Virus record (IMG/VR): IMGVR_UViG_3300045988_157568
Origin: a virus
Strand: one strand, 5' to 3'
Length of the DNA stretch: 64,000 nucleotides
Shown: positions 52,205 through 62,565 of the stretch, piece after piece
Layout: each line of letters starts with the position of its first letter
Numbering within the stretch: position 1 is the first letter of the stretch
Notes under the pieces: generated by a model
Told to the model about the DNA's origin: nothing
What the model saw: the letters and a program-made list of their open reading frames with translations, nothing else
Database searches by the model: none
Position numbers and translations under genes: made by a program

Positions 52205-54844
52205 TTATCTTCTCCTTCTCGCTGTAAAGCCTGAAATAGCTCTATAAAAAGATTGCTCATTTCTTGACTTACCCATTAAACTATCTCTGTTTACTGTTTC
52301 CGTTTCATTTACTACACCTTCGTCCATACAACCCCACACTGCCAAACCCCAACTGTCACAATTACCTGTTACAGCTATTTTGTCATTTCTACGAGTAACT
52401 ATATAACCATTGTCTACATTTACGCACCAAACTTTTCCGTTATAGTCTGTTACATTTACCTCTTTTATTCGTGTGCAATCACCTTGCATTAAATAGCAAT
52501 TATACATTTCGCCACTTTTGCGTATAGAGGTTTTTATTCCGCATTTGTGTGCTAACTCTTGAAAATCACGAGCTAAATCATAGCTGGCTGTATGATAAGT
52601 GTTCCTTGTAATTGTACCGTCACCATACATAAGAGTATCTAAGAGCAATCTTAACTGACGTAATGAAAAATCATTTAACCATTTTCGAGGTATTCTGTGT
52701 ATTCCGTCAGCAAGTAAACTGTCAAATAAGGCATTATCTTTCTTGTGGTACACCCAGTAAGTTAGTCCGTCTTTACGAGTATAAATGTATGGGTTTAAGC
52801 CTAATTTTTTAACCATAGCTTGTATTTCACTATATTTTAAACTTTTTATTGATTGACCGAAACAGTATCTTTTTGAATTATATCTCTTATCAAAATTTAT
52901 CCAACCCTCTGTTATAAACCAGCCACACTGCTTAATCAACTCGTCACTTATTGGGTAATCAGCCTTATCTTGAATAGGTGCAACTGGTATCTGCAAAGTA
53001 TTGTATCTTTGTTCATTAGGCATTGCAAAAAGTGACTGTGATAACATATCTTTATAGCAACCACTGTTTCTATGCTTAACTAACATCTTATGATTTTCTG
53101 TTACCTTTAGAGCTAAATCCTTTGACTTAAATTCGTACATTTTGCCACAATAATCTTTGTGTATTATTTTAGTTGGTTTCCTATATACAATTTTTCCGTC
53201 AACAACACTTGCCACTAAAGTATCAGAGGTCATTTTATCATAAGTTATAAAGCCTTTATCAGTAAGTATTTCTGTATCAAGAGATAAACAAAAATCGTCG
53301 TGAGCGTTCTTCTCGTCAGGGTGAGATACCACAAGTTGTGAGCCCCTGTAATCTTTCTGCAACTCACCTAATTGCTCAATAAATTTATGATATTCTTCTG
53401 ACTTCAATACTTCTTCGGACGCTGGCACTCTTGCTCTACCACTTGAAATCTCCGTTTCAAGATTTTTGTACATTTCAGACTTACTCTTTGTAGTAAAAAT
53501 ATAAGGTATAACCTCACAATTTAAGTTAGCTCTAAGCCTATGTGATATACTTGCTTCTCTTGTAGCGTCACATACAACCTTAGCTAACTTAAAGTGTGAT
53601 AAAAAGTCCATAATCATATAATATTGTTCTTCATAGTCAGGCATATTTGATATTTTTAGCCAACTCTTTATATAAGTATTATATGTCTTATAAACCATAG
53701 TCTCACCAGTTTCAGGGTCAACCCTTTCATCAAATTGCAAAGGTTGTGTCCAATCAACTTCTACGATTGTGATAACGGTATCATCACCCTTACCACCTAA
53801 GTCTATACCTGCAACGTGCGTTCTTGACTTGTCATAAAGAGATACGTCCAAAAGCGGTTCAAGATTATTTTGTTCAAACTGCTCTATATCAATAAACATA
53901 CCTCTTTCCAATATCCACTTTAGCTTATAAGACATTTGGTACTCGTCTGACTTCTCACCCAAACTTCTCTTTTCACCTTCAATGTACTTTGCATACCAAG
54001 GGTTATATTTTGCGGCTACATCACAATCGTACTCAAAATGGTTTCGCACTCTTGTTTCACCATTATCATATTCAAGTTTGTTACGCTGAATTGCGTCATA
54101 GAAATTACCTTTAAAGGTTGTCGCTGTTCCGATTTTAACCTTTGTAGCATTATAAGCAGCACCCATAGGGTGGATAGACTTAGTAATCTTGTAATTACTA
54201 ATATCTTGACACTCCTCGCAGATAATTAATTTAAAGGACTCACCTTCGATTGATGAACCGTCACTGGCTGAAATAGCCGTAACGAATGAGCCATTACTTA
54301 GAGAACACGTCTGTCCATTTGACGTGGTAAACTGTAAATTAAAATCAGGGTCATTTAAGACTGCTTCTGCTGACGGACTTAGAAGTCTACTACGAATACG
54401 GTTGTATGTAATTTGTGCCTGTCTTTGTGACGGAGCAAATATACCAATCCATAAACCGTCCCTAAACGGTTGCAGTCGCTTATCATTTGCAAACATAGGC
54501 ATATTTGCAAGTTGTGGTAGCAAAATCATCATACCACCTGATGTATCTGAAATTGTTTCTGACTTACCACTCTGTCTTGCAAATAAAGCTGTTATTTCTG
54601 CACCGTCATTTGTTAAAACGGAGCGAATAACTCTTTTTGAAAATTGTTCCTGATAGGGATATAGTGTTCTTCCCGAATATACTTCAATGAAATTAAACAC
54701 TAAGTTCACCAATTCAGATGTTGTAACACTGCCTGCTAATGTGTATTTCAGATTATCAGTCACTTCTAAGTAAGTGAGGAATAACCAGTAAAATATACAC
54801 TTTATATCAATCCATAAGCTATGCAAAACCTTTCTCCATTTCAT
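52205..54844 (-). CDS. terL: terminase large subunit interrupted by an intein
   Basis: Walker A-like FARQSGKSE, Walker B-like KLIICEECQ, and nuclease-domain acidic motifs AGIDLGGKGDDT and NAHDDF|CDSWGLAVW. Confidence 0.85.
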   Translation of the reverse strand: MKWRKVLHSLWIDIKCIFYWLFLTYLEVTDNLKYTLAGSVTTSELVNLVFNFIEVYSGRTLYPYQEQFSKRVIRSVLTNDGAEITALFARQSGKSETISDTSGGMMILLPQLANMPMFANDKRLQPFRDGLWIGIFAPSQRQAQITYNRIRSRLLSPSAEAVLNDPDFNLQFTTSNGQTCSLSNGSFVTAISASDGSSIEGESFKLIICEECQDISNYKITKSIHPMGAAYNATKVKIGTATTFKGNFYDAIQRNKLEYDNGETRVRNHFEYDCDVAAKYNPWYAKYIEGEKRSLGEKSDEYQMSYKLKWILERGMFIDIEQFEQNNLEPLLDVSLYDKSRTHVAGIDLGGKGDDTVITIVEVDWTQPLQFDERVDPETGETMVYKTYNTYIKSWLKISNMPDYEEQYYMIMDFLSHFKLAKVVCDATREASISHRLRANLNCEVIPYIFTTKSKSEMYKNLETEISSGRARVPASEEVLKSEEYHKFIEQLGELQKDYRGSQLVVSHPDEKNAHDDFCLSLDTEILTDKGFITYDKMTSDTLVASVVDGKIVYRKPTKIIHKDYCGKMYEFKSKDLALKVTENHKMLVKHRNSGCYKDMLSQSLFAMPNEQRYNTLQIPVAPIQDKADYPISDELIKQCGWFITEGWINFDKRYNSKRYCFGQSIKSLKYSEIQAMVKKLGLNPYIYTRKDGLTYWVYHKKDNALFDSLLADGIHRIPRKWLNDFSLRQLRLLLDTLMYGDGTITRNTYHTASYDLARDFQELAHKCGIKTSIRKSGEMYNCYLMQGDCTRIKEVNVTDYNGKVWCVNVDNGYIVTRRNDKIAVTGNCDSWGLAVWGCMDEGVVNETETVNRDSLMGKSRNEQSFYRAISGFTARRRR
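52361..53290 (-). mobile_element. terL intein (310 aa) with LAGLIDADG endonuclease
   Basis: Begins CLSLDTEILTDKG directly after HDDF and ends IAVTGN, followed by Cys. Internal motifs are CGWFITEGWI and LLDTLMYGDGT. Confidence 0.8.
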
Positions 54845-56908: not shown

Positions 56909-58072
56909 TTATTCTTCTTCACTTTCATACTCGCCGCCGCAAATTTCGCAGATAAATGTATCATCTTCTTCATTGTATTGGAGTGGCTGACCGCAGCAGT
57001 AAGGCTCACCGTTTAGTGTATAAGGTGCACCTTCTTCAACTTCGTCACCTTCATCATCAATGAATAGCATTTTTAGTTGAAGATATGCGTCAAACAATTC
57101 ATCATTATCCATATCGTCAATCTCATCTGCTGACTCATCATAGTATGCCTTTAGAGCCTTTTTCATTGTGACTGCCTTTAGCTTACCGTCATCATATTTC
57201 TTTTCAAGCATAGATTTTAGAGCTTTTAGTGCCTTTTTACGAGCTGGTTTGATGTTAGGGTTACTTAGGTCATTTACATCTTCTTCGTCACCTTCATCTT
57301 CAACATCTTCATCTTCGTAATCATCATCTTCATAATCGTCATCTTCAGGTTCTTCTTTATTTTCACCTTCGCCATTGATTGCAATAGCACCGTCTTGTAC
57401 TGCCTTGATTAGCTTGTTGATTAAAGCCTGACGCTTACCCTTTGCGGAGATACCTGCTTCAACAAGTAAGTCTGCAATTTCTTCCGTTTCCATTTCGGAT
57501 ACTCTATCTTCAATTTCTTCCGCAAGACTTTCTTCATCATCAATAGGCTCTGCTTCAACATCTTCTTCGCCGTCATCTTCGTCTGTATCATCTTCATCTT
57601 CAACATCTTCAAGTGTTGTTTCTTCTTCGTCATCTTCGTCAAAATCTTCTTCAATCTGTTCTGACGCACCTAAAATGTTGTCAATTAAAGTTTCTCTGTC
57701 ACCCTTTGCTGATACACCGACTTCTTTGGCAATCTTTTTTAGCTCATTATACTTTTTGCCGTCAAGAGCTTCTTTTGTATAAATATCGTCTGTTTCATCA
57801 GATGTTTCGTCAACTTCGTCAACTTCGTCAACTTCTTGCTTTTCAACCTTTGACTTCTTAGTTGTCGACTTCTTAACAGGTACAACCTTTTCAGATGTTT
57901 TTGGTGTTTCCAATGTACCAGCTGTTTCCAATGTACCAACTGTTTCAGCCAACTCTGTCATTTCAAATACAGGTAGTGCCATAAGCATATCTGTATATGC
58001 GTCAAAGAAGTCTGCCATTGCCTTCTTCATATCCAACACCGATTTAATTAATTGTTCCTTATTGTTTGCCAT
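56909..58072 (-). CDS. highly acidic protein with two SAP/Rho-N-like helix motifs and a C-terminal zinc ribbon
   Basis: ATG at 58072 after AAGGAGG. It has long D/E runs, YNELKKIAKEVGVSAKGDRETLIDNIL and IADLLVEAGISAKGKRQALINKLI, and a C-terminal CCGQPL...CEICGG. Confidence 0.6.
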   Translation of the reverse strand: MANNKEQLIKSVLDMKKAMADFFDAYTDMLMALPVFEMTELAETVGTLETAGTLETPKTSEKVVPVKKSTTKKSKVEKQEVDEVDEVDETSDETDDIYTKEALDGKKYNELKKIAKEVGVSAKGDRETLIDNILGASEQIEEDFDEDDEEETTLEDVEDEDDTDEDDGEEDVEAEPIDDEESLAEEIEDRVSEMETEEIADLLVEAGISAKGKRQALINKLIKAVQDGAIAINGEGENKEEPEDDDYEDDDYEDEDVEDEGDEEDVNDLSNPNIKPARKKALKALKSMLEKKYDDGKLKAVTMKKALKAYYDESADEIDDMDNDELFDAYLQLKMLFIDDEGDEVEEGAPYTLNGEPYCCGQPLQYNEEDDTFICEICGGEYESEEE

Positions 58073-58143
58073 AATAAACAACCTCCTTGATTTTTTATAT
58101 TTTTATTTTCTTTGATAACGTATTTCGTTATCACTATGACTAC

Positions 58144-58819: not shown

Positions 58820-59422
58820 TTAATACTCCTTATAAAACACCCTTGTCATTATTATAAAACAATTTTCTCTCCACTTATTCTTGCGTACATTCTTTTTCAA
58901 GTTCTCTGTTGCTTCTTCATAAGTGTTAAAAGTGTTCACTACTTCGTAATGCTCACCGTCTGACATATTATATTTCCTTGCCAAAACATAGTCCTTTTGC
59001 TTGATATTTTTCTTATCCACACATAAAATGTCCGTATCACGCTCTGAAATCGCCAAAATCAAGTCTTTTGTACTTACAAGGTCTAATTGTAAGCTAAAGT
59101 CTTTTACTTTCTCAAATCGGCGTTTTTGCCCGAATACATTAAGCTCCTGCTTGTCCTTAGGTACTGGTGATAGAAATTCTAAAAGGTCACGAGTCCAAAC
59201 ATAACTCTTGCCATTTAAACTCTTATACACGACAACAGGGTTTTCAGTGGTACTGTCCATACCAATACTCATTACACGATAGTAGCCACCTTTAAAATGC
59301 CGTACTATTGGCTCGGATTGTAAGTCTACTATCAATTCCACAACCGACTTGCCATAGTAAGCTTCAATCTCATCAATCAATTCTTGTGTTTTACTGTCCT
59401 TTTTCTTAGTTAATTCGTCCAT
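58820..59422 (-). CDS. DUF1653-like domain protein
   Basis: ATG at 59422 after AAGGAGG. RHFKGGYYRVMSIG...VVVYKSLNGKSYVWTRDLLEF matches the DUF1653 signature (HYKGG.Y...VvY..l....W.RP...F) as I remember it. Confidence 0.55.
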   Translation of the reverse strand: MDELTKKKDSKTQELIDEIEAYYGKSVVELIVDLQSEPIVRHFKGGYYRVMSIGMDSTTENPVVVYKSLNGKSYVWTRDLLEFLSPVPKDKQELNVFGQKRRFEKVKDFSLQLDLVSTKDLILAISERDTDILCVDKKNIKQKDYVLARKYNMSDGEHYEVVNTFNTYEEATENLKKNVRKNKWRENCFIIMTRVFYKEY

Positions 59423-59581
59423 AATTTCCTCCTTATAGCATAAATAGCTTACCAGCATTGTGCCGATAAGCTATCTATGAAACGACTATTCATACTTTTA
59501 GTGGGGGAAGTACAAATATTAAATCTGTATAGCTCCCTGCAAGGTGTGACCTTGTTAAACAGACTCTCTGTCAGAAAGCAT

Positions 59582-60622
59582 ATACAAGCTATGGTTAGAT
59601 AGCTTGTATTGTGTCGAAAGGATTGTGAATAAATCACAAATAATGATAAAGCCAGTAGATTACATCAACCACTTAATCAATTCCATATGTAACTCTAAAC
59701 GAGGTGTAGGAATTCTCGGGTCTACTTAGGAGAGTACTCTTGGGAATTACTCTCCCATAAACCTATTAAATTCAAAGGAGGTGCAATTACCATATGGAGT
59801 AACCGCACATTGTCAAAATGACAAACTGAACCTTGCTATGTTAATATGTATAGAGGACTTATTGAAAAACAAGCAAGTAATATACCAAACCATTTAATCA
59901 AAAGTTATTAAACTTAGCAAAGTTCAGCGTTTTCATAAGCTCTATGAAAACTATTTAACAATTACTCATTGTGAAATGAGGAGTTGTTTGTTCTGCACTG
60001 TTTCACGAACAGTGCAAGTGGAAATCAGTGACTTGAGTAGTTCTATTGTAAGTACCGTTTAATACAATACTCATCTACTCTGCCGCCCCAAACGGTTTTA
60101 AGGGACATATATGCTGTCACTGAATTGGTGGGTATTGCAGGTGTCGAACCTGCTCCAAAACAAAAGCTATTCTTCTGAAATGTAGTGCCACCACGAATAC
60201 CCATATGGTGGTGAATAACCGCCAAACTCACCACCATATTAAAATAATATAACGAAAAACAAACATTTTGCCATACAATCGGAATTAAACAAAATGCTTA
60301 CGTTCAAGCGTGGTTACACAAGAAGTCAAAGCAACCACGCAAGAAACTTGTGCCCCCATTCGGCTATAATGGGTATACGATTTTATTGTTGACCGAACGG
60401 GGACTGGCTACACGATTGAGAATTGCACTCAATTACACTTTGAGAGGTCATTGCGTTCAGTGGTATTACTATCCCACTCAATGAATGATGTGCTTGTGTA
60501 CTCTAAGCGTGTAATATGTGAAAATCTATGAGAAAGTGTTTAGGTGTGAAACCGCAACGAACACCACGGAAGAAATATTCGAGCTACAACACCTGAAACA
60601 AGGAACGTCATCTCTCAATGAC
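59582..60622 (-). ncRNA. candidate large structured non-coding RNA or giant structured leader (about 1 kb, boundaries approximate)
   Basis: It has no SD-preceded ORF. A consensus promoter at 60629-60657 fires into it. There are more than 12 helices, several with G-U pairs only in the minus sense. A tRNA-like module is embedded. A possible 3' hairpin lies at 59582-59609. Confidence 0.5.
60126..60202 (-). tRNA. tRNA-like element with encoded CCA and non-canonical anticodon and D regions
   Basis: Minus strand: GGGTATT...AATACCC 7-bp acceptor stem, T arm GCAGG-TTCGACA-CCTGC, discriminator A, CCA. A 17-nt anticodon-arm equivalent, CAGAA-GAATAGC-TTTTG, lacks U33. Confidence 0.5.
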
Positions 60623-60628
60623 AAGCTC

Positions 60629-60657
60629 ATTATAACATCACTTAACACACTTGTCAA
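60629..60657 (-). promoter_or_regulatory. sigma-70-type promoter TTGACA-17-TATAAT with TGn extension, directed into the ORF-free region
   Basis: Minus strand: TTGACA (60657-60652), a 17-nt spacer ending TGT, TATAAT (60634-60629). It overlaps the last codons of the 60638-60856 ORF. Confidence 0.65.
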
Positions 60658-60856
60658 TACTTTTTTTAATTTTTTTCAAAATTTTTTTCTTTGGAGGGGC
60701 TGAAACCCCTTTTTCCACGCTTAAATCAGTGCCTTTATGTATCATATCCCTTAAAATCAAAGGTATCTCACTTAAAGGCTTGTCTTTCAGTTCAGGATAG
60801 TCAATCAAAAGATTATCTACACAATCCTTAACAAGCGTCAATGCTTTACTTTCCAC
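60638..60856 (-). CDS. hypothetical small protein
   Basis: 72-aa ORF with a Lys-rich C-terminus. The start is uncertain (GTG). Confidence 0.45.
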   Translation of the reverse strand: MESKALTLVKDCVDNLLIDYPELKDKPLSEIPLILRDMIHKGTDLSVEKGVSAPPKKKILKKIKKSIDKCVK

Positions 60857-61242: not shown

Positions 61243-61288
61243 GTGGTAATTCTCCTCATTACAAAATTTTTAGCTTCTCATATCACTT

Positions 61289-61351
61289 CACGCACACGCC
61301 CACGCACATACAGGCGTACACACGCCTACACACGCACACACGCACGTGCGT
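61289..61351. repeat. GC-rich (CA/CG)n purine-pyrimidine alternating tract ending in the 12-bp palindrome ACGCACGTGCGT
   Basis: The sequence is CACGCACACGCCCACGCACATACAGGCGTACACACGCCTACACACGCACACACGCACGTGCGTA. It contains a 23-nt perfect R/Y alternation, a palindrome at 61340-61351, and an AGGCGT/ACGCCT hairpin. Confidence 0.6.
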
Positions 61352-61358
61352 AACTACG

Positions 61359-61442
61359 TTATATTGTATTATATATTAATATATTATAATATATAATTAT
61401 ATATAATTAATTATATATAATTATAATATTTATAATTATATA
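61359..61442. repeat. 84-nt almost pure A/T tract (one G) with tandem 14-bp palindromes AATTATATATAATT x2
   Basis: The palindromes lie at 61395-61408 and 61409-61422. The tract is candidate DNA-unwinding-element-like sequence. Confidence 0.55.
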
Positions 61443-61512
61443 CAGCTATTAATTGTTCACTTAATTAATACATAAATGTATTAATAAAGTTCACCGAGTA
61501 TTTTTGCATTTT

Positions 61513-61577
61513 TGTGCAAATGCACATCATTGGTTATTATATACACTTTTGCTCTCTGTTTTTGTGCAATATGTACA
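61513..61577. promoter_or_regulatory. two operator-like near-palindromes related to the RHH-promoter palindrome
   Basis: TGTGCAAATGCACA (61513-61526) and TGTGCAATATGTACA (61563-61577) are each preceded by TTT, as is TGTGCATATGCACA at 11352. A TATAAT on the minus strand (61536-61541) lies between them. Confidence 0.4.
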
Positions 61578-61619
61578 AGCTAAATTCCTTCGGAATTGGG
61601 GTTCTTATTTGGGTTAGTT

Positions 61620-61694
61620 TCGCTCCGCTCAACAACCCAAAACGACTCGTGCGTTCCGCTTCGCTCCACTTCGAGAATTACACTCGCTCCGCTC
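61620..61694. repeat. direct repeats of TCGCTCCGCTC in a GC-richer island
   Basis: Exact 11-mers at 61620-61630 and 61684-61694, with a permuted copy (TCCGCTTCGCTCC) at 61655-61667. The first copy sits in the loop of the TTTGGGTT/AACCCAAA inverted repeat (61608-61641). Confidence 0.5.
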
Positions 61695-61882
61695 GTTTAC
61701 CACCTAAAATCACTCTTTTTAACTGGTAATTTAATCGTGGTTTTTAACTGCTATTTAAGGTCTTTAGGGAGGTATTTTAGTTGCATTTTCTTAATAAAAC
61801 TACTACACTAAATTTCCATATTTTGTGTCATTTTTAAATTCTACATCACTCCCTCAATATTTATTTTGGCGATATTTTTGAA

Positions 61883-61997
61883 AGTGACTTTTAGCCATAA
61901 AATAGTGACTTTTTGTACGCTATTGTGACTACATCAATGTGACATTTATTGTGACTTATGTGACTACATCTCTGTCATTGTGACTACATCTCTGTCA
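61883..61997. repeat. seven GTGAC-core iteron-like repeats including a 19-nt unit repeated in tandem at a 20-bp period
   Basis: GTGAC at 61883, 61904, 61924, 61938, 61950, 61959 and 61979. GTGACTACATCTCTGTCAT is repeated at 61959-61977 and 61979-61997. TTGTGACTACATC occurs at 61922 and 61977 (TATGTGACTACATC at 61956). Confidence 0.6.
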
Positions 61998-62109
61998 TAC
62001 TAATTAGCTGGTCGTTGGGAGGGTGAAAACCATATCACTCCCTCAATTTTATTCCGCAACTGTAAGATACCACACACACGACAGGTGGGAAGTGACTGTA
62101 AATTAATGG

Positions 62110-62395
62110 TGGGGGTGGTATTATATGTTATGTTACAAGTTCATTACATTTTTGTTACGCTTTTGTTATGTATTTGTTAAGAAAAAGTTACATTTCAATA
62201 TTACATTTTTATTAATAATTTGCTGCAATTATATTACAATTCAAAAGAAAATTTTTTGTAAGAATTTTACAAGAAAAAAATTGTAAAATAAAATCATTTC
62301 ATTATTTTAAAAATCAAATTGAAATACATTTCAAATTTAAAATTGAAATATCAAACAATATTTAATATTCCATTTCAAAAAAATCAAAAAGAAGC
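62110..62395. repeat. AT-rich region with several short repeat families
   Basis: TTTGTTA(C/T/A)G x3, TTACATTT x3, and AAATTGAAATA x2 with a TTGAAAT/ATTTCAA inverted repeat, plus TTGTAA/TTACAA pairs. Boundaries are approximate. Confidence 0.4.
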
Positions 62396-62535
62396 AGCAA
62401 AGCAGGCGGTAATATAAGCGGTTAAATAGGTGTATAAGGCAATAAATACAATTAAATATATAAGTTATATACCTATTGTAATTATTGATGTTTTAAAGGC
62501 GATTACAAGCCGTTCACAAGATACAGATTAAGCAA

Positions 62536-62565
62536 TAAAAAACGGCTATTATATAGCCGTTTTTA
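62536..62565 (-). terminator. rho-independent terminator (bidirectional shape)
   Basis: ACGGCTAT / ATAGCCGT stem with a 3-nt loop, flanked by an A-run and a T-run. It overlaps the stop of the 62549-62857 gene and closes the early operon. Confidence 0.65.

What the first reader, a model, noticed from the sequence alone, without database searches (positions are those of the whole stretch)
59423..60637. 1.2-kb ORF-free, promoter-driven, helix-dense locus: candidate large structured ncRNA (ROOL/GOLLD-class or new)
Seen in sequence: the genome is otherwise packed with overlapping genes, yet 1,215 nt between the DUF1653-like gene start (59422) and the stop of ORF 60638-60856 contain no ORF preceded by a Shine-Dalgarno motif. 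The three 61-64 aa track ORFs there lack one. A consensus TTGACA-17-TGnTATAAT promoter (60629-60657) points into the region on the minus strand. The region is unusually rich in helices. In at least four of them the non-Watson-Crick positions are G-U only when read in the minus sense, and A-C in the plus sense: 59781-59790/59799-59808 (10 bp, 2 G-U), 59826-59838/59915-59927 (13 bp, 1 G-U, encloses about 76 nt), 60085-60089/60102-60106 (1 G-U), and 60352-60363/60393-60404 (12 bp, 2 G-U). Perfect hairpins lie at 59582-59609, 59729-59755, 59929-59951, 59994-60016, 60203-60239 and 60308-60340. The loop of the 60308-60340 hairpin (CTTGTGT) can pair with its 5' flank (GCACAAG) as a pseudoknot. CATATG-containing self-complementary motifs recur (59684, 59791, 60202). 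Established knowledge: the large ornate RNAs GOLLD and ROOL were described in Firmicutes phages and prophages, frequently next to or containing tRNAs. Inference: this is either a member of one of those classes or an undescribed large phage RNA. The alternative is a giant structured 5' leader of the 59422 operon.
Basis: partly seen in the sequence, partly recalled or inferred. Interest (0 to 1): 0.85.

Follow-up and report, generated by a model that had tools for sequence, protein, structure and literature searches.

The report
Phage noncoding RNA island with tRNA-like module
A 1.2-kb gene-free, promoter-driven, strongly folded stretch of an uncultured human-gut phage sits where sister phages carry a tRNA array, Y RNAs and a Ro60 gene. 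It contains a conserved tRNA look-alike ending in CCA and matches no described RNA family, so it is a plausible new phage noncoding RNA locus rather than a GOLLD or ROOL RNA.

Summary
Positions 59423-60637 have no ORF under any stop-codon reassignment. A perfect TTGACA-17-TGnTATAAT promoter points into the region on the minus strand. Every listed helix exists. All four sub-segments fold far better than shuffles (z -5.1 to -7.2).

The GOLLD/ROOL reading fails: Rfam 15 gives no hit even at E<=10. The only hit is a sub-threshold tRNA-like element at 60202..60126. It has a 7-bp acceptor stem, a canonical T arm and an encoded ACCA, but an aberrant, strain-variable "anticodon" loop.

Sister phages (terminase 58-77% identical) carry at this slot a consensus promoter, 5-10 tRNAs, YrlA-like Y RNAs and Ro60. 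This lineage has none of those genes.

All 19 homologues found are 96.6-99.4% identical, so covariation is thin: 4 compensatory pairs, 22 wobble-compatible changes and 4 disruptive ones. The tRNA-like body (1/69 variable sites against 38/223 in its flanks) and the 3' 580 nt (2.1% against 7.9% at third codon positions) are conserved.

Most likely this is a noncoding transcript, probably cut by RNase P at the tRNA-like module. Its function is unknown.

The parts
60629..60657 (-). Consensus extended -10 sigma-70 promoter (TTGACA-17-TGnTATAAT), embedded in the 3' end of orf72. The inferred transcription start is near 60622.
   Evidence: 12 of 12 matches, TG present. One spacer polymorphism only in 17 homologues. 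Sister phages have the same type of promoter in front of their tRNA islands.
60607..60622 (-). 5'-terminal 6-bp hairpin (GUCAUU-GAGA-GAUGAC) at the inferred start of the transcript.
   Evidence: fold. A stabilising role is inferred from established knowledge of 5' stem-loops.
60203..60622 (-). 5' structured domain of about 420 nt. Its 3' end would be created by cleavage at the tRNA-like module.
   Evidence: z = -5.09. 5.0% segregating sites against 7.9% at third codon positions.
60352..60404 (-). 13-bp helix enclosing a 27-nt loop, with a C-G to U-A compensatory change.
   Evidence: pair 60399/60356: CG in 12 sequences, UA in 5.
60259..60299 (-). A/U-rich 13-bp hairpin followed by a U tract of variable length (5, 6 or 9 U). 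A weak terminator-like element.
   Evidence: Not called by the terminator scan.
60203..60239 (-). 12-bp perfect hairpin that ends exactly one base before the tRNA-like module. Its loop is hypervariable (12-nt tandem duplication, substitutions).
60126..60202 (-). tRNA-like module: 7-bp acceptor stem GGGUAUU/AAUACCC, short D arm, long 'anticodon' arm with a variable apical loop, T arm GCAGG-UUCGACA-CCUGC, discriminator A and encoded CCA. U at position -1.
   Evidence: Rfam tRNA 17.6 bits and mascRNA 23 bits, both below threshold. Cloverleaf in the minimum-energy fold. ARAGORN calls it only at a lowered threshold. Body has 1/69 variable sites against 38/223 in the flanks, p = 0.0004.
60022..60120 (-). 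Three-way-junction domain closed by an 8-bp helix. It contains a U-A to C-G compensatory pair.
   Evidence: pair 60067/60046: UA in 16 sequences, CG in 4.
59994..60016 (-). 9-10-bp perfect hairpin whose 5-nt loop is found in both orientations among strains (CGUGA or UCACG).
59846..60001 (-). Nearly invariant 156-nt core: two hairpins and the 5' strand and interior of the 59825-59928 domain.
   Evidence: pi 0.002; 1/156 segregating sites against 7.9% at third codon positions, p = 0.0002. Fold z = -6.4.
59825..59928 (-). 13-14-bp helix (one G.U in the minus sense) enclosing an irregular stem of about 76 nt.
59810..59824 (-). 6-bp hairpin with a U-A to C-G compensatory change. The change destroys a TTGACA promoter-like hexamer, so the hairpin rather than a promoter is conserved.
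   Evidence: pair 59821/59813: UA in 13 sequences, CG in 7.
59781..59808 (-). 10-11-bp hairpin with two G.U pairs in the minus sense and a CAUAUG loop.
59774..59783 (-). Single-stranded CACCUCCUUU (anti-Shine-Dalgarno-like) that pairs with the DUF1653 ribosome-binding site in the minimum-energy fold.
   Evidence: Invariant in 19 of 20 sequences. Chance occurrence of the 7-mer is about 0.07, so this is a lead only.
59439..59479 (-). 19-bp hairpin ending 6 nt before the DUF1653 Shine-Dalgarno sequence. Candidate double-strand-specific RNase site or 5' stabiliser of the mRNA.
   Evidence: (I19).
59420..59433 (-). Shine-Dalgarno sequence AAGGAGG and the ATG of the DUF1653 gene: the downstream boundary.

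Best explanation
The region is the noncoding RNA island of this phage lineage.

Shown: a constitutive-looking consensus sigma-70 promoter faces a 1.2-kb stretch that cannot encode protein. That stretch folds far better than chance and keeps its helices through the little variation available. It contains a tRNA-like module whose body is conserved while its surroundings vary. It lies at the exact syntenic position where sister phages have a promoter-driven tRNA array, YrlA-like Y RNAs and Ro60.

Inferred: the transcript starts near 60622 with a 5' hairpin. The tRNA-like module has a 7-bp acceptor stem stacked on a canonical T arm, U at -1, a G1-C72 pair and A73-CCA. Host RNase P recognises it and cuts at 60203/60202. 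This would release three products:
- a 5' RNA of about 420 nt, capped by hairpins at both ends;
- a tRNA-like RNA of about 77 nt with a CCA end that does not decode, because its 'anticodon' loop differs between strains;
- a highly conserved, structured 3' part of about 700 nt that runs into the DUF1653 mRNA, either as a leader or, after cleavage at the 19-bp hairpin, as a separate RNA.

What the products do is not known. Replacing or mimicking the tRNA and Y-RNA functions of the sister phages is a guess.
For: - No coding potential and no relic of Ro60, hydrolase or DUF932 genes.
- Promoter present and conserved.
- Fold z-scores of -5.1 to -7.2; the most structured 1.2 kb of the window.
- Synteny: in the sister phages, small ORFs, then a consensus promoter, then the RNA island (followed by Ro60 and a hydrolase), then DUF1653, SAP, ligase and terminase.
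- tRNA-like module. Its body varies at 1/69 sites against 38/223 in the flanks, p = 0.0004, and 6 of its 7 variable sites lie in the apical loop.
- Helix maintenance in 19-20 sequences: 4 compensatory pairs, 22 wobble-compatible and 4 broken in the minus sense, against 3, 13 and 10 in the plus sense.
- About 0.4 double hits on paired sites are expected by chance between the two clades, and 3 are seen (Poisson p = 0.008).
- The 3' 579 nt has 2.1% segregating sites against 7.9% at third codon positions, p = 6e-7.
- The 12-bp hairpin ends exactly at position -1 of the tRNA-like module.
Against: - No expression data of any kind.
- All 19 homologues are 96.6-99.4% identical, so covariation is weak and largely reflects two clades.
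- With structures predicted from one sequence, variants keep or break pairs equally in both strands: 20 kept and 13 broken against 21 and 14.
- The minus-against-plus contrast is only marginal (Fisher p = 0.06).
- The middle part, 60002-60300, evolves at a neutral-like rate (9.0%) with indels, loop inversions and, in one low-coverage contig, loss of half a hairpin.
- Low diversity in the 3' part could partly reflect a recombination block shared with the equally conserved DUF1653 gene.
- RNase P cleavage is inferred only from sequence features.
- Sister phages show no sequence or profile similarity to the region.
Confidence: 0.45

Rival explanations
1. It is a purely cis-acting giant leader of the DUF1653, ligase and terminase operon. 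The strong promoter is the operon promoter, and the hairpins act as pause, attenuation, antitermination or translation-control elements, including anti-SD/SD sequestration. The tRNA-like element is a processing or stabilising signal for the mRNA.
For: - No convincing intrinsic terminator lies between the promoter and the DUF1653 start.
- The best-conserved 580 nt adjoin the gene.
- CACCUCCUUU at 59783-59774 pairs with the ribosome-binding site in the minimum-energy fold.
- A 19-bp hairpin sits 6 nt upstream of the Shine-Dalgarno sequence.
- The only internal promoter-like site is not conserved.
Against: - 1.2 kb is far longer than known bacterial or phage leaders.
- No riboswitch, T-box, put-like or other cis-regulatory family matches.
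- In sister phages the slot holds stand-alone RNA genes, and DUF1653 follows other genes with only a short spacer of about 170 nt.
- The anti-SD match has a chance probability of about 0.07.
- orf134 and orf72 give no hint of an antiterminator.
Confidence: 0.22
2. It is one large ornate RNA, a divergent GOLLD/ROOL-class member or a new class. It would fold as a single unit of 0.6-1.2 kb and act in trans, possibly as a multimeric assembly.
For: - The size, the phage origin and the tRNA-associated position fit what is written about GOLLD and ROOL (PMC5737381, read).
- Strong overall structure.
- A 156-nt invariant core.
Against: - No hit to any large-RNA model at E<=10.
- The predicted structure is a string of local, often perfect hairpins. 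The few long-range helices are weak.
- The middle 300 nt is hypervariable and tolerates duplications and loop inversions.
- A tRNA-like module with CCA in the middle argues for processing into parts.
Confidence: 0.12
3. It is a DNA-level element or a decaying remnant. The palindromes would serve replication, recombination or protein binding, or the stretch would be what is left of a former tRNA, Y-RNA and Ro60 island and no longer matter.
For: - Compensatory Watson-Crick changes and perfect palindromes are strand-symmetric.
- Loops are inverted between strains, a signature of recombination at DNA inverted repeats.
- 60002-60300 evolves neutrally.
- The single-sequence structure test shows no strand preference.
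- The slot is dispensable in at least one relative, L168.
Against: - Iterons, AT-rich palindromes and CACACG repeats lie in the neighbouring 61243-62548 block, not here. There are no direct repeats in the region.
- No trace of Ro60, hydrolase or DUF932 coding sequence.
- Only one tRNA-like element, and its body is under constraint.
- The 3' 580 nt is more conserved than first and second codon positions of the neighbouring genes.
- The consensus promoter is retained.
- Wobble-type changes favour minus-sense RNA pairing.
Confidence: 0.13

Closest known systems
Phage tRNA-gene islands with co-transcribed stable RNAs. The sister phages found here have 5-10 tRNAs, YrlA-like Y RNAs and Ro60. From my own knowledge, the T4 tRNA region carries the species 1 and 2 stable RNAs.
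   Same: Same genomic slot and the same type of consensus promoter as the tRNA, Y-RNA and Ro60 islands of sister phages. ORF-free, about 1.2-2 kb. It contains a cloverleaf element with a T arm nearly identical (16 of 17 bases) to one in relative L140.
   Different: No genuine tRNA, no Y RNA, no Ro60, and no sequence or profile similarity to the relatives' islands. About 1.1 kb is unclassified structured RNA.
GOLLD (RF01998) and ROOL (RF03087) large ornate RNAs
   Same: Large, structured, found in phages and associated with tRNA genes (PMC5737381; PMC12286853 listed).
   Different: No covariance-model match at E<=10. The predicted architecture is tandem hairpins rather than conserved multistem junctions and pseudoknots. 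The central part is hypervariable.
Bacterial Y RNAs of the YrlA type, with Ro60/Rsr
   Same: tRNA mimicry inside a noncoding RNA. M. smegmatis YrlA is cut by RNase P and receives CCA (PMC4201824). YrlA-like RNAs sit at the homologous slot in sister phages.
   Different: YrlA's tRNA-like domain is circularly permuted, has a closed acceptor stem and is joined to a Ro60-binding stem. Here the order is that of a normal tRNA, with a free encoded CCA, no Ro60 gene and no RF02553 match.
MALAT1-mascRNA and MEN-beta tRNA-like 3'-end processing (eukaryotic; RF01684)
   Same: A tRNA-like element with a reduced D arm embedded in a long noncoding transcript, where RNase P cleavage would create the 3' end of the upstream RNA. 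It is the best, though sub-threshold, Rfam hit (23 bits, E = 0.08). The upstream RNA ends in a protective structure.
   Different: A eukaryotic family, so this is an analogy of mechanism only. Here CCA is encoded, and the upstream 3' end would be a plain 12-bp hairpin, not a triple helix. Cleavage is untested.
Lambdoid late-operon leader (pR' - 6S RNA - tR', from my own knowledge)
   Same: A strong constitutive-type promoter in front of an untranslated leader that precedes the packaging and structural genes.
   Different: That leader is about 200 nt long with a strong terminator and a Q antiterminator. Here the leader would be 1.2 kb, only weak terminator-like hairpins are present, and no recognisable antiterminator gene is found.

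Membership tests
GOLLD / ROOL (also HEARO, OLE, raiA) | Significant match to the family covariance model | tested here: not met
   No hit at gathering score in the window. No hit at E<=10 with permissive filters on 59300-60800.
GOLLD / ROOL | Conserved multistem junctions and pseudoknots supported by covariation | tested here: inconclusive
   Homologues are at least 96.6% identical. Predicted folds are mostly tandem local hairpins. The proposed pseudoknot shows 2 compatible changes and 1 disruptive change.
GOLLD / ROOL | Located in phages or prophages next to tRNA genes | tested here: inconclusive
   Phage context is confirmed. There is no tRNA gene in 64 kb, but there is an embedded tRNA-like element and the slot holds tRNA arrays in relatives.
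GOLLD / ROOL | Homo-oligomeric RNA-only assembly | not testable with these tools
   Needs cryo-EM or native gels (PMC12286853 listed).
YrlA-type Y RNA | Match to RF02553 | tested here: not met
   None at E<=10, whereas relatives score 32-38 bits.
YrlA-type Y RNA | Encoded within a few kb of a Ro60/TROVE gene on the same strand | tested here: not met
   No TROVE match in the window by tblastn or by profile search of the six-frame translation. The near-identical 91.5-kb contig was not recovered with a Ro60 query.
YrlA-type Y RNA | Permuted tRNA-like domain with a closed acceptor stem joined to a Ro60-binding stem (GNCGAAN0-1G motif) | tested here: not met
   The element has normal tRNA order with a free ACCA. 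The single motif-like site at 60364-60357 loses its first G in 15 of 18 homologues.
tRNA | Detected by tRNA finders or the covariance model at curated thresholds | tested here: not met
   ARAGORN finds 0 genes and calls the element only at -ps80. RF00005 scores 17.6 bits against a gathering score of 29.
tRNA | 7-bp acceptor stem, 5-bp T stem with a UUCRANY loop, discriminator base and CCA | tested here: met
   The T-loop polymorphism G/A keeps the purine.
tRNA | 7-nt anticodon loop with U33 and a conserved anticodon | tested here: not met
   A 12-nt apical region with no U33. Four different versions, with indels, occur among strains that are at least 96.6% identical.
mascRNA-type processing module | Match to RF01684 and RNase P cleavage that defines the 3' end of the upstream RNA | tested here: inconclusive
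   23 bits against a gathering score of 42.5. Cleavage is not testable here. The resemblance is one of mechanism, not membership.
Replication origin | Iterons, AT-rich unwinding element, direct repeats | tested here: not met
   None in 59423-60637. All such features lie in 61243-62548.
Terminator/antiterminator-controlled late leader | Strong intrinsic terminator(s) in the leader and an antiterminator gene | tested here: inconclusive
   Only one weak terminator-like hairpin was scored, plus an A/U-rich hairpin with a U tract. orf134 and orf72 match no family.

The most novel reading that the evidence does not exclude
This is a previously undescribed kind of phage noncoding RNA locus. A long structured transcript is punctuated by a built-in, non-decoding tRNA-like module with CCA, which host RNase P uses to carve out a hairpin-capped RNA of about 420 nt, a free tRNA mimic, and a conserved structured RNA of about 600-700 nt. 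That would be a bacterial counterpart of MALAT1-mascRNA processing. The module has taken over the genomic slot, and perhaps the host-manipulating role, of the tRNA, Y-RNA and Ro60 module of sister phages.
Probability: 0.3. Interest if true: 0.75.

Novelty: new variant of a known kind. Interest (0 to 1): 0.5.

Why it matters
Phage tRNA islands are increasingly seen as tools for host takeover and for evading defence systems, and the large RNAs that travel with them (GOLLD, ROOL) still have no known function. Here one natural phage family swaps three kinds of content at a single promoter-driven slot. Most members carry tRNAs, Y RNAs and Ro60. One member carries nothing (L168). This lineage carries an unclassified 1.2-kb structured RNA with a tRNA mimic.

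If the RNA is expressed and processed as proposed, the family becomes a comparative system for asking what non-decoding tRNA-like RNAs and long structured RNAs do for a phage. The sister phages also contain two further unannotated, covarying RNA elements that deserve description.

Tried and rejected
- **Stop-codon recoding.** Rejected: all three stop codons occur in every frame.
- **Known RNA families.** Rejected: no hits.
- **Decayed Ro60, hydrolase or DUF932 genes.** Rejected: only noise in tblastn and profile searches.
- **Decayed tRNA array.** Only one tRNA-like element is found, even at E<=10.
- **Similarity to INPHARED phage records.** None by blastn or megablast.
- **Similarity to distant DUF1653 loci.** None by nhmmer or blastn in 78 loci, and none has a comparable gap directly upstream of the gene.
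- **Similarity to 45 terminase-defined relatives.** None.
- **Similarity to 12 Ro60 islands.** Only T-arm micro-matches.
- **Profile of the relatives' 'element A'.** No hit in the window.
- **Covariance model of the relatives' non-canonical tRNA-like element (R1).** It hits our element at 18.6 bits, but ordinary tRNAs score the same, so no specific orthology is shown.
- **Degenerate D-arm/T-loop pattern in IMG/VR.** Only unrelated tRNAs were found.
- **Exact core pattern in genome contigs.** No match.
- **Look-ups of P0007 and P0009.** Not on record.
- **Origin of replication.** Those features lie next door, not in the region.
- **Internal promoter at 59816..59789.** Rejected: the compensatory hairpin change destroys its -35 hexamer in 7 of 20 strains.
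- **Strand asymmetry in folding energy as evidence.** Rejected: it equals the genome-wide bias.
- **DUF1653 function.** No solved relative and no literature.
- **Literature searches on phage tRNA-like processing and large structured phage RNAs.** Nothing directly relevant.
Full report
**What is there**

The window is a stretch of an uncultured phage of about 91.5 kb from the human gut. Nearly all long ORFs lie on the minus strand. It has no DNA similarity to deposited phage genomes.

Between the start of a DUF1653-domain gene (58820-59422, Pfam E = 1.6e-16) and the stop of a 72-aa ORF (60638-60856) lie 1,215 nt without credible coding potential. All six frames carry TAA, TAG and TGA stops, so no recoding scheme helps. 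The short ORFs there are broken by indels, a duplication and loop inversions in close homologues.

A 12-of-12 consensus promoter with the extended -10 TG (60657..60629, minus strand) is the best promoter-like site in the neighbourhood. It is conserved in all full-length homologues.

The non-Watson-Crick positions of the four imperfect helices are G.U only in the minus sense.

**Is the structure more than chance?**

Yes. The four minus-sense sub-segments fold with z = -5.1, -6.0, -6.4 and -7.2, and no shuffle folds as well. In a sliding scan the region is the most stable and lowest-z 1.2 kb of the 64 kb.

The difference between strands (-387 against -328 kcal/mol) is not specific to the region. 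The whole genome folds better in the minus sense.

**Known families**

Rfam 15 gives nothing at gathering thresholds for the whole window. At E<=10 on 59300-60800 it gives only noise, apart from overlapping sub-threshold hits of the tRNA model (17.6 bits) and the mascRNA model (23 bits, E = 0.08) at 60129-60202 on the minus strand. GOLLD, ROOL, HEARO, OLE and raiA do not appear. ARAGORN finds no tRNA or tmRNA in the window.

**The tRNA-like module**

Read in the minus sense, 60202..60126 forms a cloverleaf:
- a 7-bp acceptor stem, GGGUAUU/AAUACCC;
- a short D arm with a GG loop;
- a 7+2-bp "anticodon" arm;
- no variable loop;
- a canonical T arm, GCAGG-UUCGACA-CCUGC;
- the discriminator A and an encoded CCA.

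The base before G1 is U. By established knowledge these are the determinants for bacterial RNase P: a 12-bp acceptor/T stack, U at -1, a G1-C72 pair and RCCA.

ARAGORN calls the element only at a lowered threshold, as "tRNA-Tyr(AUA)" with no U33.

Among 19 sequences (L154 set aside), 6 of its 7 variable positions lie in the apical loop, which exists in four versions with indels. The seventh is a G/A change at the T-loop purine. The rest of the body varies at 1/69 positions, against 38/223 in the flanking 60002-60300 zone (p = 0.0004).

The body is therefore under selection but the anticodon is not. This is a tRNA mimic, not a decoding tRNA. A perfect 12-bp hairpin (60239-60203) ends exactly at position -1.

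**Relatives and the genomic slot**

The DUF1653 protein has only near-identical relatives, then a gap to 37% identity. That 37% relative (L084) proved syntenic, with terminase 70%, ligase 49% and the SAP protein 36% identical.

Upstream of its DUF1653 gene it carries a Hydrolase_2 gene, a 547-aa TROVE/Ro60 gene, a YrlA-like Y RNA (RF02553, 32.8 bits, below threshold) and several tRNAs.

A terminase-based scan of IMG/VR returned 45 family members. In most of those whose fetched DNA reaches the slot, the order is Ro60, Hydrolase_2 (in most), DUF1653, DUF932, SAP, ligase, terminase. Ro60-centred loci show 5-10 tRNAs in 1.6-2.1 kb of ORF-free DNA, followed by YrlA-like RNAs with 32-38-bit matches. 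T-arm scans of several of these islands show two such candidates each.

These islands start with the same type of consensus extended -10 promoter, directly after two small ORFs.

Our lineage has orf134, orf72, the promoter, then the 1.2-kb region, then DUF1653. It has no tRNA, no Ro60, no hydrolase and no DUF932, and no relic of them. One relative (L168) has no island at all. Another, in a Mogibacterium MAG (L171), has an origin-like block followed by a promoter and a structured noncoding stretch of about 370 nt that ends in a terminator (z = -4.0).

The slot is thus a hot spot for promoter-driven RNA genes, and its content is exchanged between lineages. No sequence or profile similarity links our region to the relatives' islands, except the T arm. 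The model of their non-canonical tRNA-like element scores ours no better than it scores ordinary tRNAs.

**Homologues of the region itself**

A spurious 64-aa ORF was used as a protein query. Together with an exact core motif searched in metagenomes, this raised the set to 19 homologues from human-gut assemblies. All are 96.6-99.4% identical.

RNAalifold on the 19-20 sequences predicts about 380 pairs. Four pairs show compensatory double changes: 60399/60356, 60172/60166, 60067/60046 and 59821/59813. Twenty-two show one-sided changes that keep pairing through G.U, and 4 are disrupted.

The same procedure on the opposite strand gives 3 compensatory, 13 kept and 10 disrupted pairs (Fisher p = 0.06).

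About 0.4 double hits on paired sites are expected by chance between the two clades, and three are seen (p = 0.008).

One compensatory change (59821/59813) destroys the only internal promoter-like -35 hexamer while keeping the hairpin.

Against this, structures predicted from the window sequence alone do not discriminate the strands: 20 kept and 13 broken against 21 and 14. Two hairpin loops are found in both orientations, which is a DNA-level recombination signature.

**Constraint along the region**

Across six full-length sequences, third codon positions of the six flanking genes have 7.9% segregating sites, and first and second positions have 3.7%. The region compares as follows:

| Segment | Segregating sites | p against third positions |
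|---|---|---|
| Whole region, 59423-60622 | 4.6% | 0.002 |
| 59423-60001 | 2.1% | 6e-7 |
| Core, 59846-60001 | 0.6% | 0.0002 |
| 60301-60622 | 5.0% | 0.1 |
| 60002-60300 | 9.0% | 0.54 (neutral-like) |

The neutral-like middle segment has a variable U tract, a 12-nt tandem duplication and, in one low-coverage contig, an 18-nt deletion.

A caveat applies. Diversity varies block-wise in these phages, and the adjacent DUF1653 gene is also low, so part of the contrast may reflect recombination history.

**Most likely mechanism**

Shown: the promoter, the absence of coding potential, strong and partly maintained structure, a constrained tRNA-like body, and positional equivalence to RNA-gene islands.

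Inferred: transcription starts near 60622, where the first 16 nt form a hairpin. RNase P cuts at 60203/60202. This leaves a 5' RNA of about 420 nt capped by hairpins at both ends, and a tRNA mimic of about 77 nt ending in CCA.

The conserved 3' part of about 700 nt continues into the DUF1653 mRNA. There, a 19-bp hairpin abuts the ribosome-binding site, and an anti-SD-like CACCUCCUUU can pair with the Shine-Dalgarno sequence (chance about 0.07). I put 0.45 on this processed, multi-part noncoding RNA reading.

Rivals:
- a purely cis-acting giant leader (0.22);
- a single large ornate RNA (0.12);
- a DNA-level element or remnant (0.13).

An origin function is unlikely for the region itself, because iterons, AT-rich palindromes and CACACG repeats lie in the neighbouring 61243-62548 block.

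**Comparison with what is known**

By location and promoter the locus works most like a phage tRNA or stable-RNA island. By layout it resembles the MALAT1-mascRNA arrangement, and the RNase P-cleaved, CCA-tailed M. smegmatis YrlA described in PMC4201824. It is not a member of any of these families by the tests available (see the membership table). GOLLD and ROOL share only the broad properties stated in PMC5737381.

**Verdict**

The specific GOLLD/ROOL assignment is not supported. An undescribed phage noncoding RNA locus is plausible but unproven, because only near-identical homologues exist and no expression data are available. Interest is moderate (0.5). I rate it a new variant of a known kind: a phage RNA-gene island whose content is an unclassified structured RNA with a non-decoding tRNA-like module.

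Noticed in passing
window 61243-62548: An ORF-poor, low-GC block (27-33% GC) that looks like a replication origin. It has CACACG-type repeats at 61289-61346, dense AT-rich palindromes at 61360-61454, three copies of TGTGACTACATC..., two of them exact 20-mers, at 61924-61998, and further tandem repeats at 61708-61758 and 62304-62350. GC skew changes sign near 62 kb. Relative L171 has an analogous repeat and AT-rich block upstream of its noncoding RNA candidate.
   Followed up: partly
window 52205-54844 (minus strand): The large terminase is 879 aa and carries an intein with a LAGLIDADG homing-endonuclease domain (Pfam PF14528, PF14890). The intein-less relative is 560 aa and aligns on both sides of the insertion.
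   Followed up: partly
L084:283-398, L137:4630-4746, L140:4766-4880; further T-arm candidates in L138, L140, L141, L144, L145, L147, L148: Sister gut phages encode Ro60/TROVE preceded by YrlA-like Y RNAs, apparently two per island in several. These have a permuted tRNA-like domain: T arm, closed acceptor hairpin, canonical D arm. They score only 32-38 bits on RF02553 (gathering score 69), so they form a divergent phage Y-RNA subgroup that curated thresholds miss.
   Followed up: partly
L147:3428-3505, L148:1182-1259, L145:1650-1727, L140:3236-3313, L138:3028-3103 (alignment A6, model R1): A non-canonical tRNA-like RNA inside the relatives' tRNA arrays: cloverleaf, long anticodon arm, conserved palindromic UUGCAA in the apical loop, no encoded CCA. 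It is missed by ARAGORN and, in the loci scanned, by Rfam. 14 of its 25 pairs show compensatory changes.
   Followed up: partly
L147:3248-3440, L145:1457-1661, L144:3108-3311, L137:3687-3942, L085:239-498 (alignment A7): A conserved unannotated RNA of about 190-260 nt ('element A') between tRNA genes of the relatives' islands. It has long invariant blocks (for example CAAUAGUCAGUGGAAACAAAUCCGUAAGGUUG and GGUGGAAAGCC), GNRA-like loops and 8 covarying pairs. Three of these loci gave no Rfam hit there at E<0.05. It may be a new RNA family linked to phage tRNA and Ro60 islands.
   Followed up: partly
window 60003-60007 and 59816-59818; 60215-60227: Among strains that are at least 96.6% identical, two hairpin loops occur as exact reverse complements of each other (flip-flop inversion at perfect inverted repeats). 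Another hairpin loop carries a 12-nt tandem duplication.
   Followed up: yes
L171:2460-2862 (Mogibacterium MAG contig CAKAFX010000012.1): A relative without tRNAs or Ro60 has, at the same slot, a TTGACA-17-TGnTATCTT promoter followed by a structured noncoding stretch of about 370 nt (z = -4.0). The stretch ends in a 10-bp GC-rich terminator hairpin. It matches no Rfam family and has no similarity to our region.
   Followed up: partly
L169-L175 (genome contigs): Family members are binned in MAGs of Eubacteriales, Mogibacterium and, oddly, Thermosipho. This hints at Clostridia-type hosts, but binning of phage contigs is unreliable.
   Followed up: no
window 56909-58081 (minus strand): A 390-aa, extremely acidic protein rich in D/E runs, with a SAP domain. 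It is conserved in position across the family but is among the most variable genes between close strains: 91-96% aa identity while the ligase is 99.6%.
   Followed up: no
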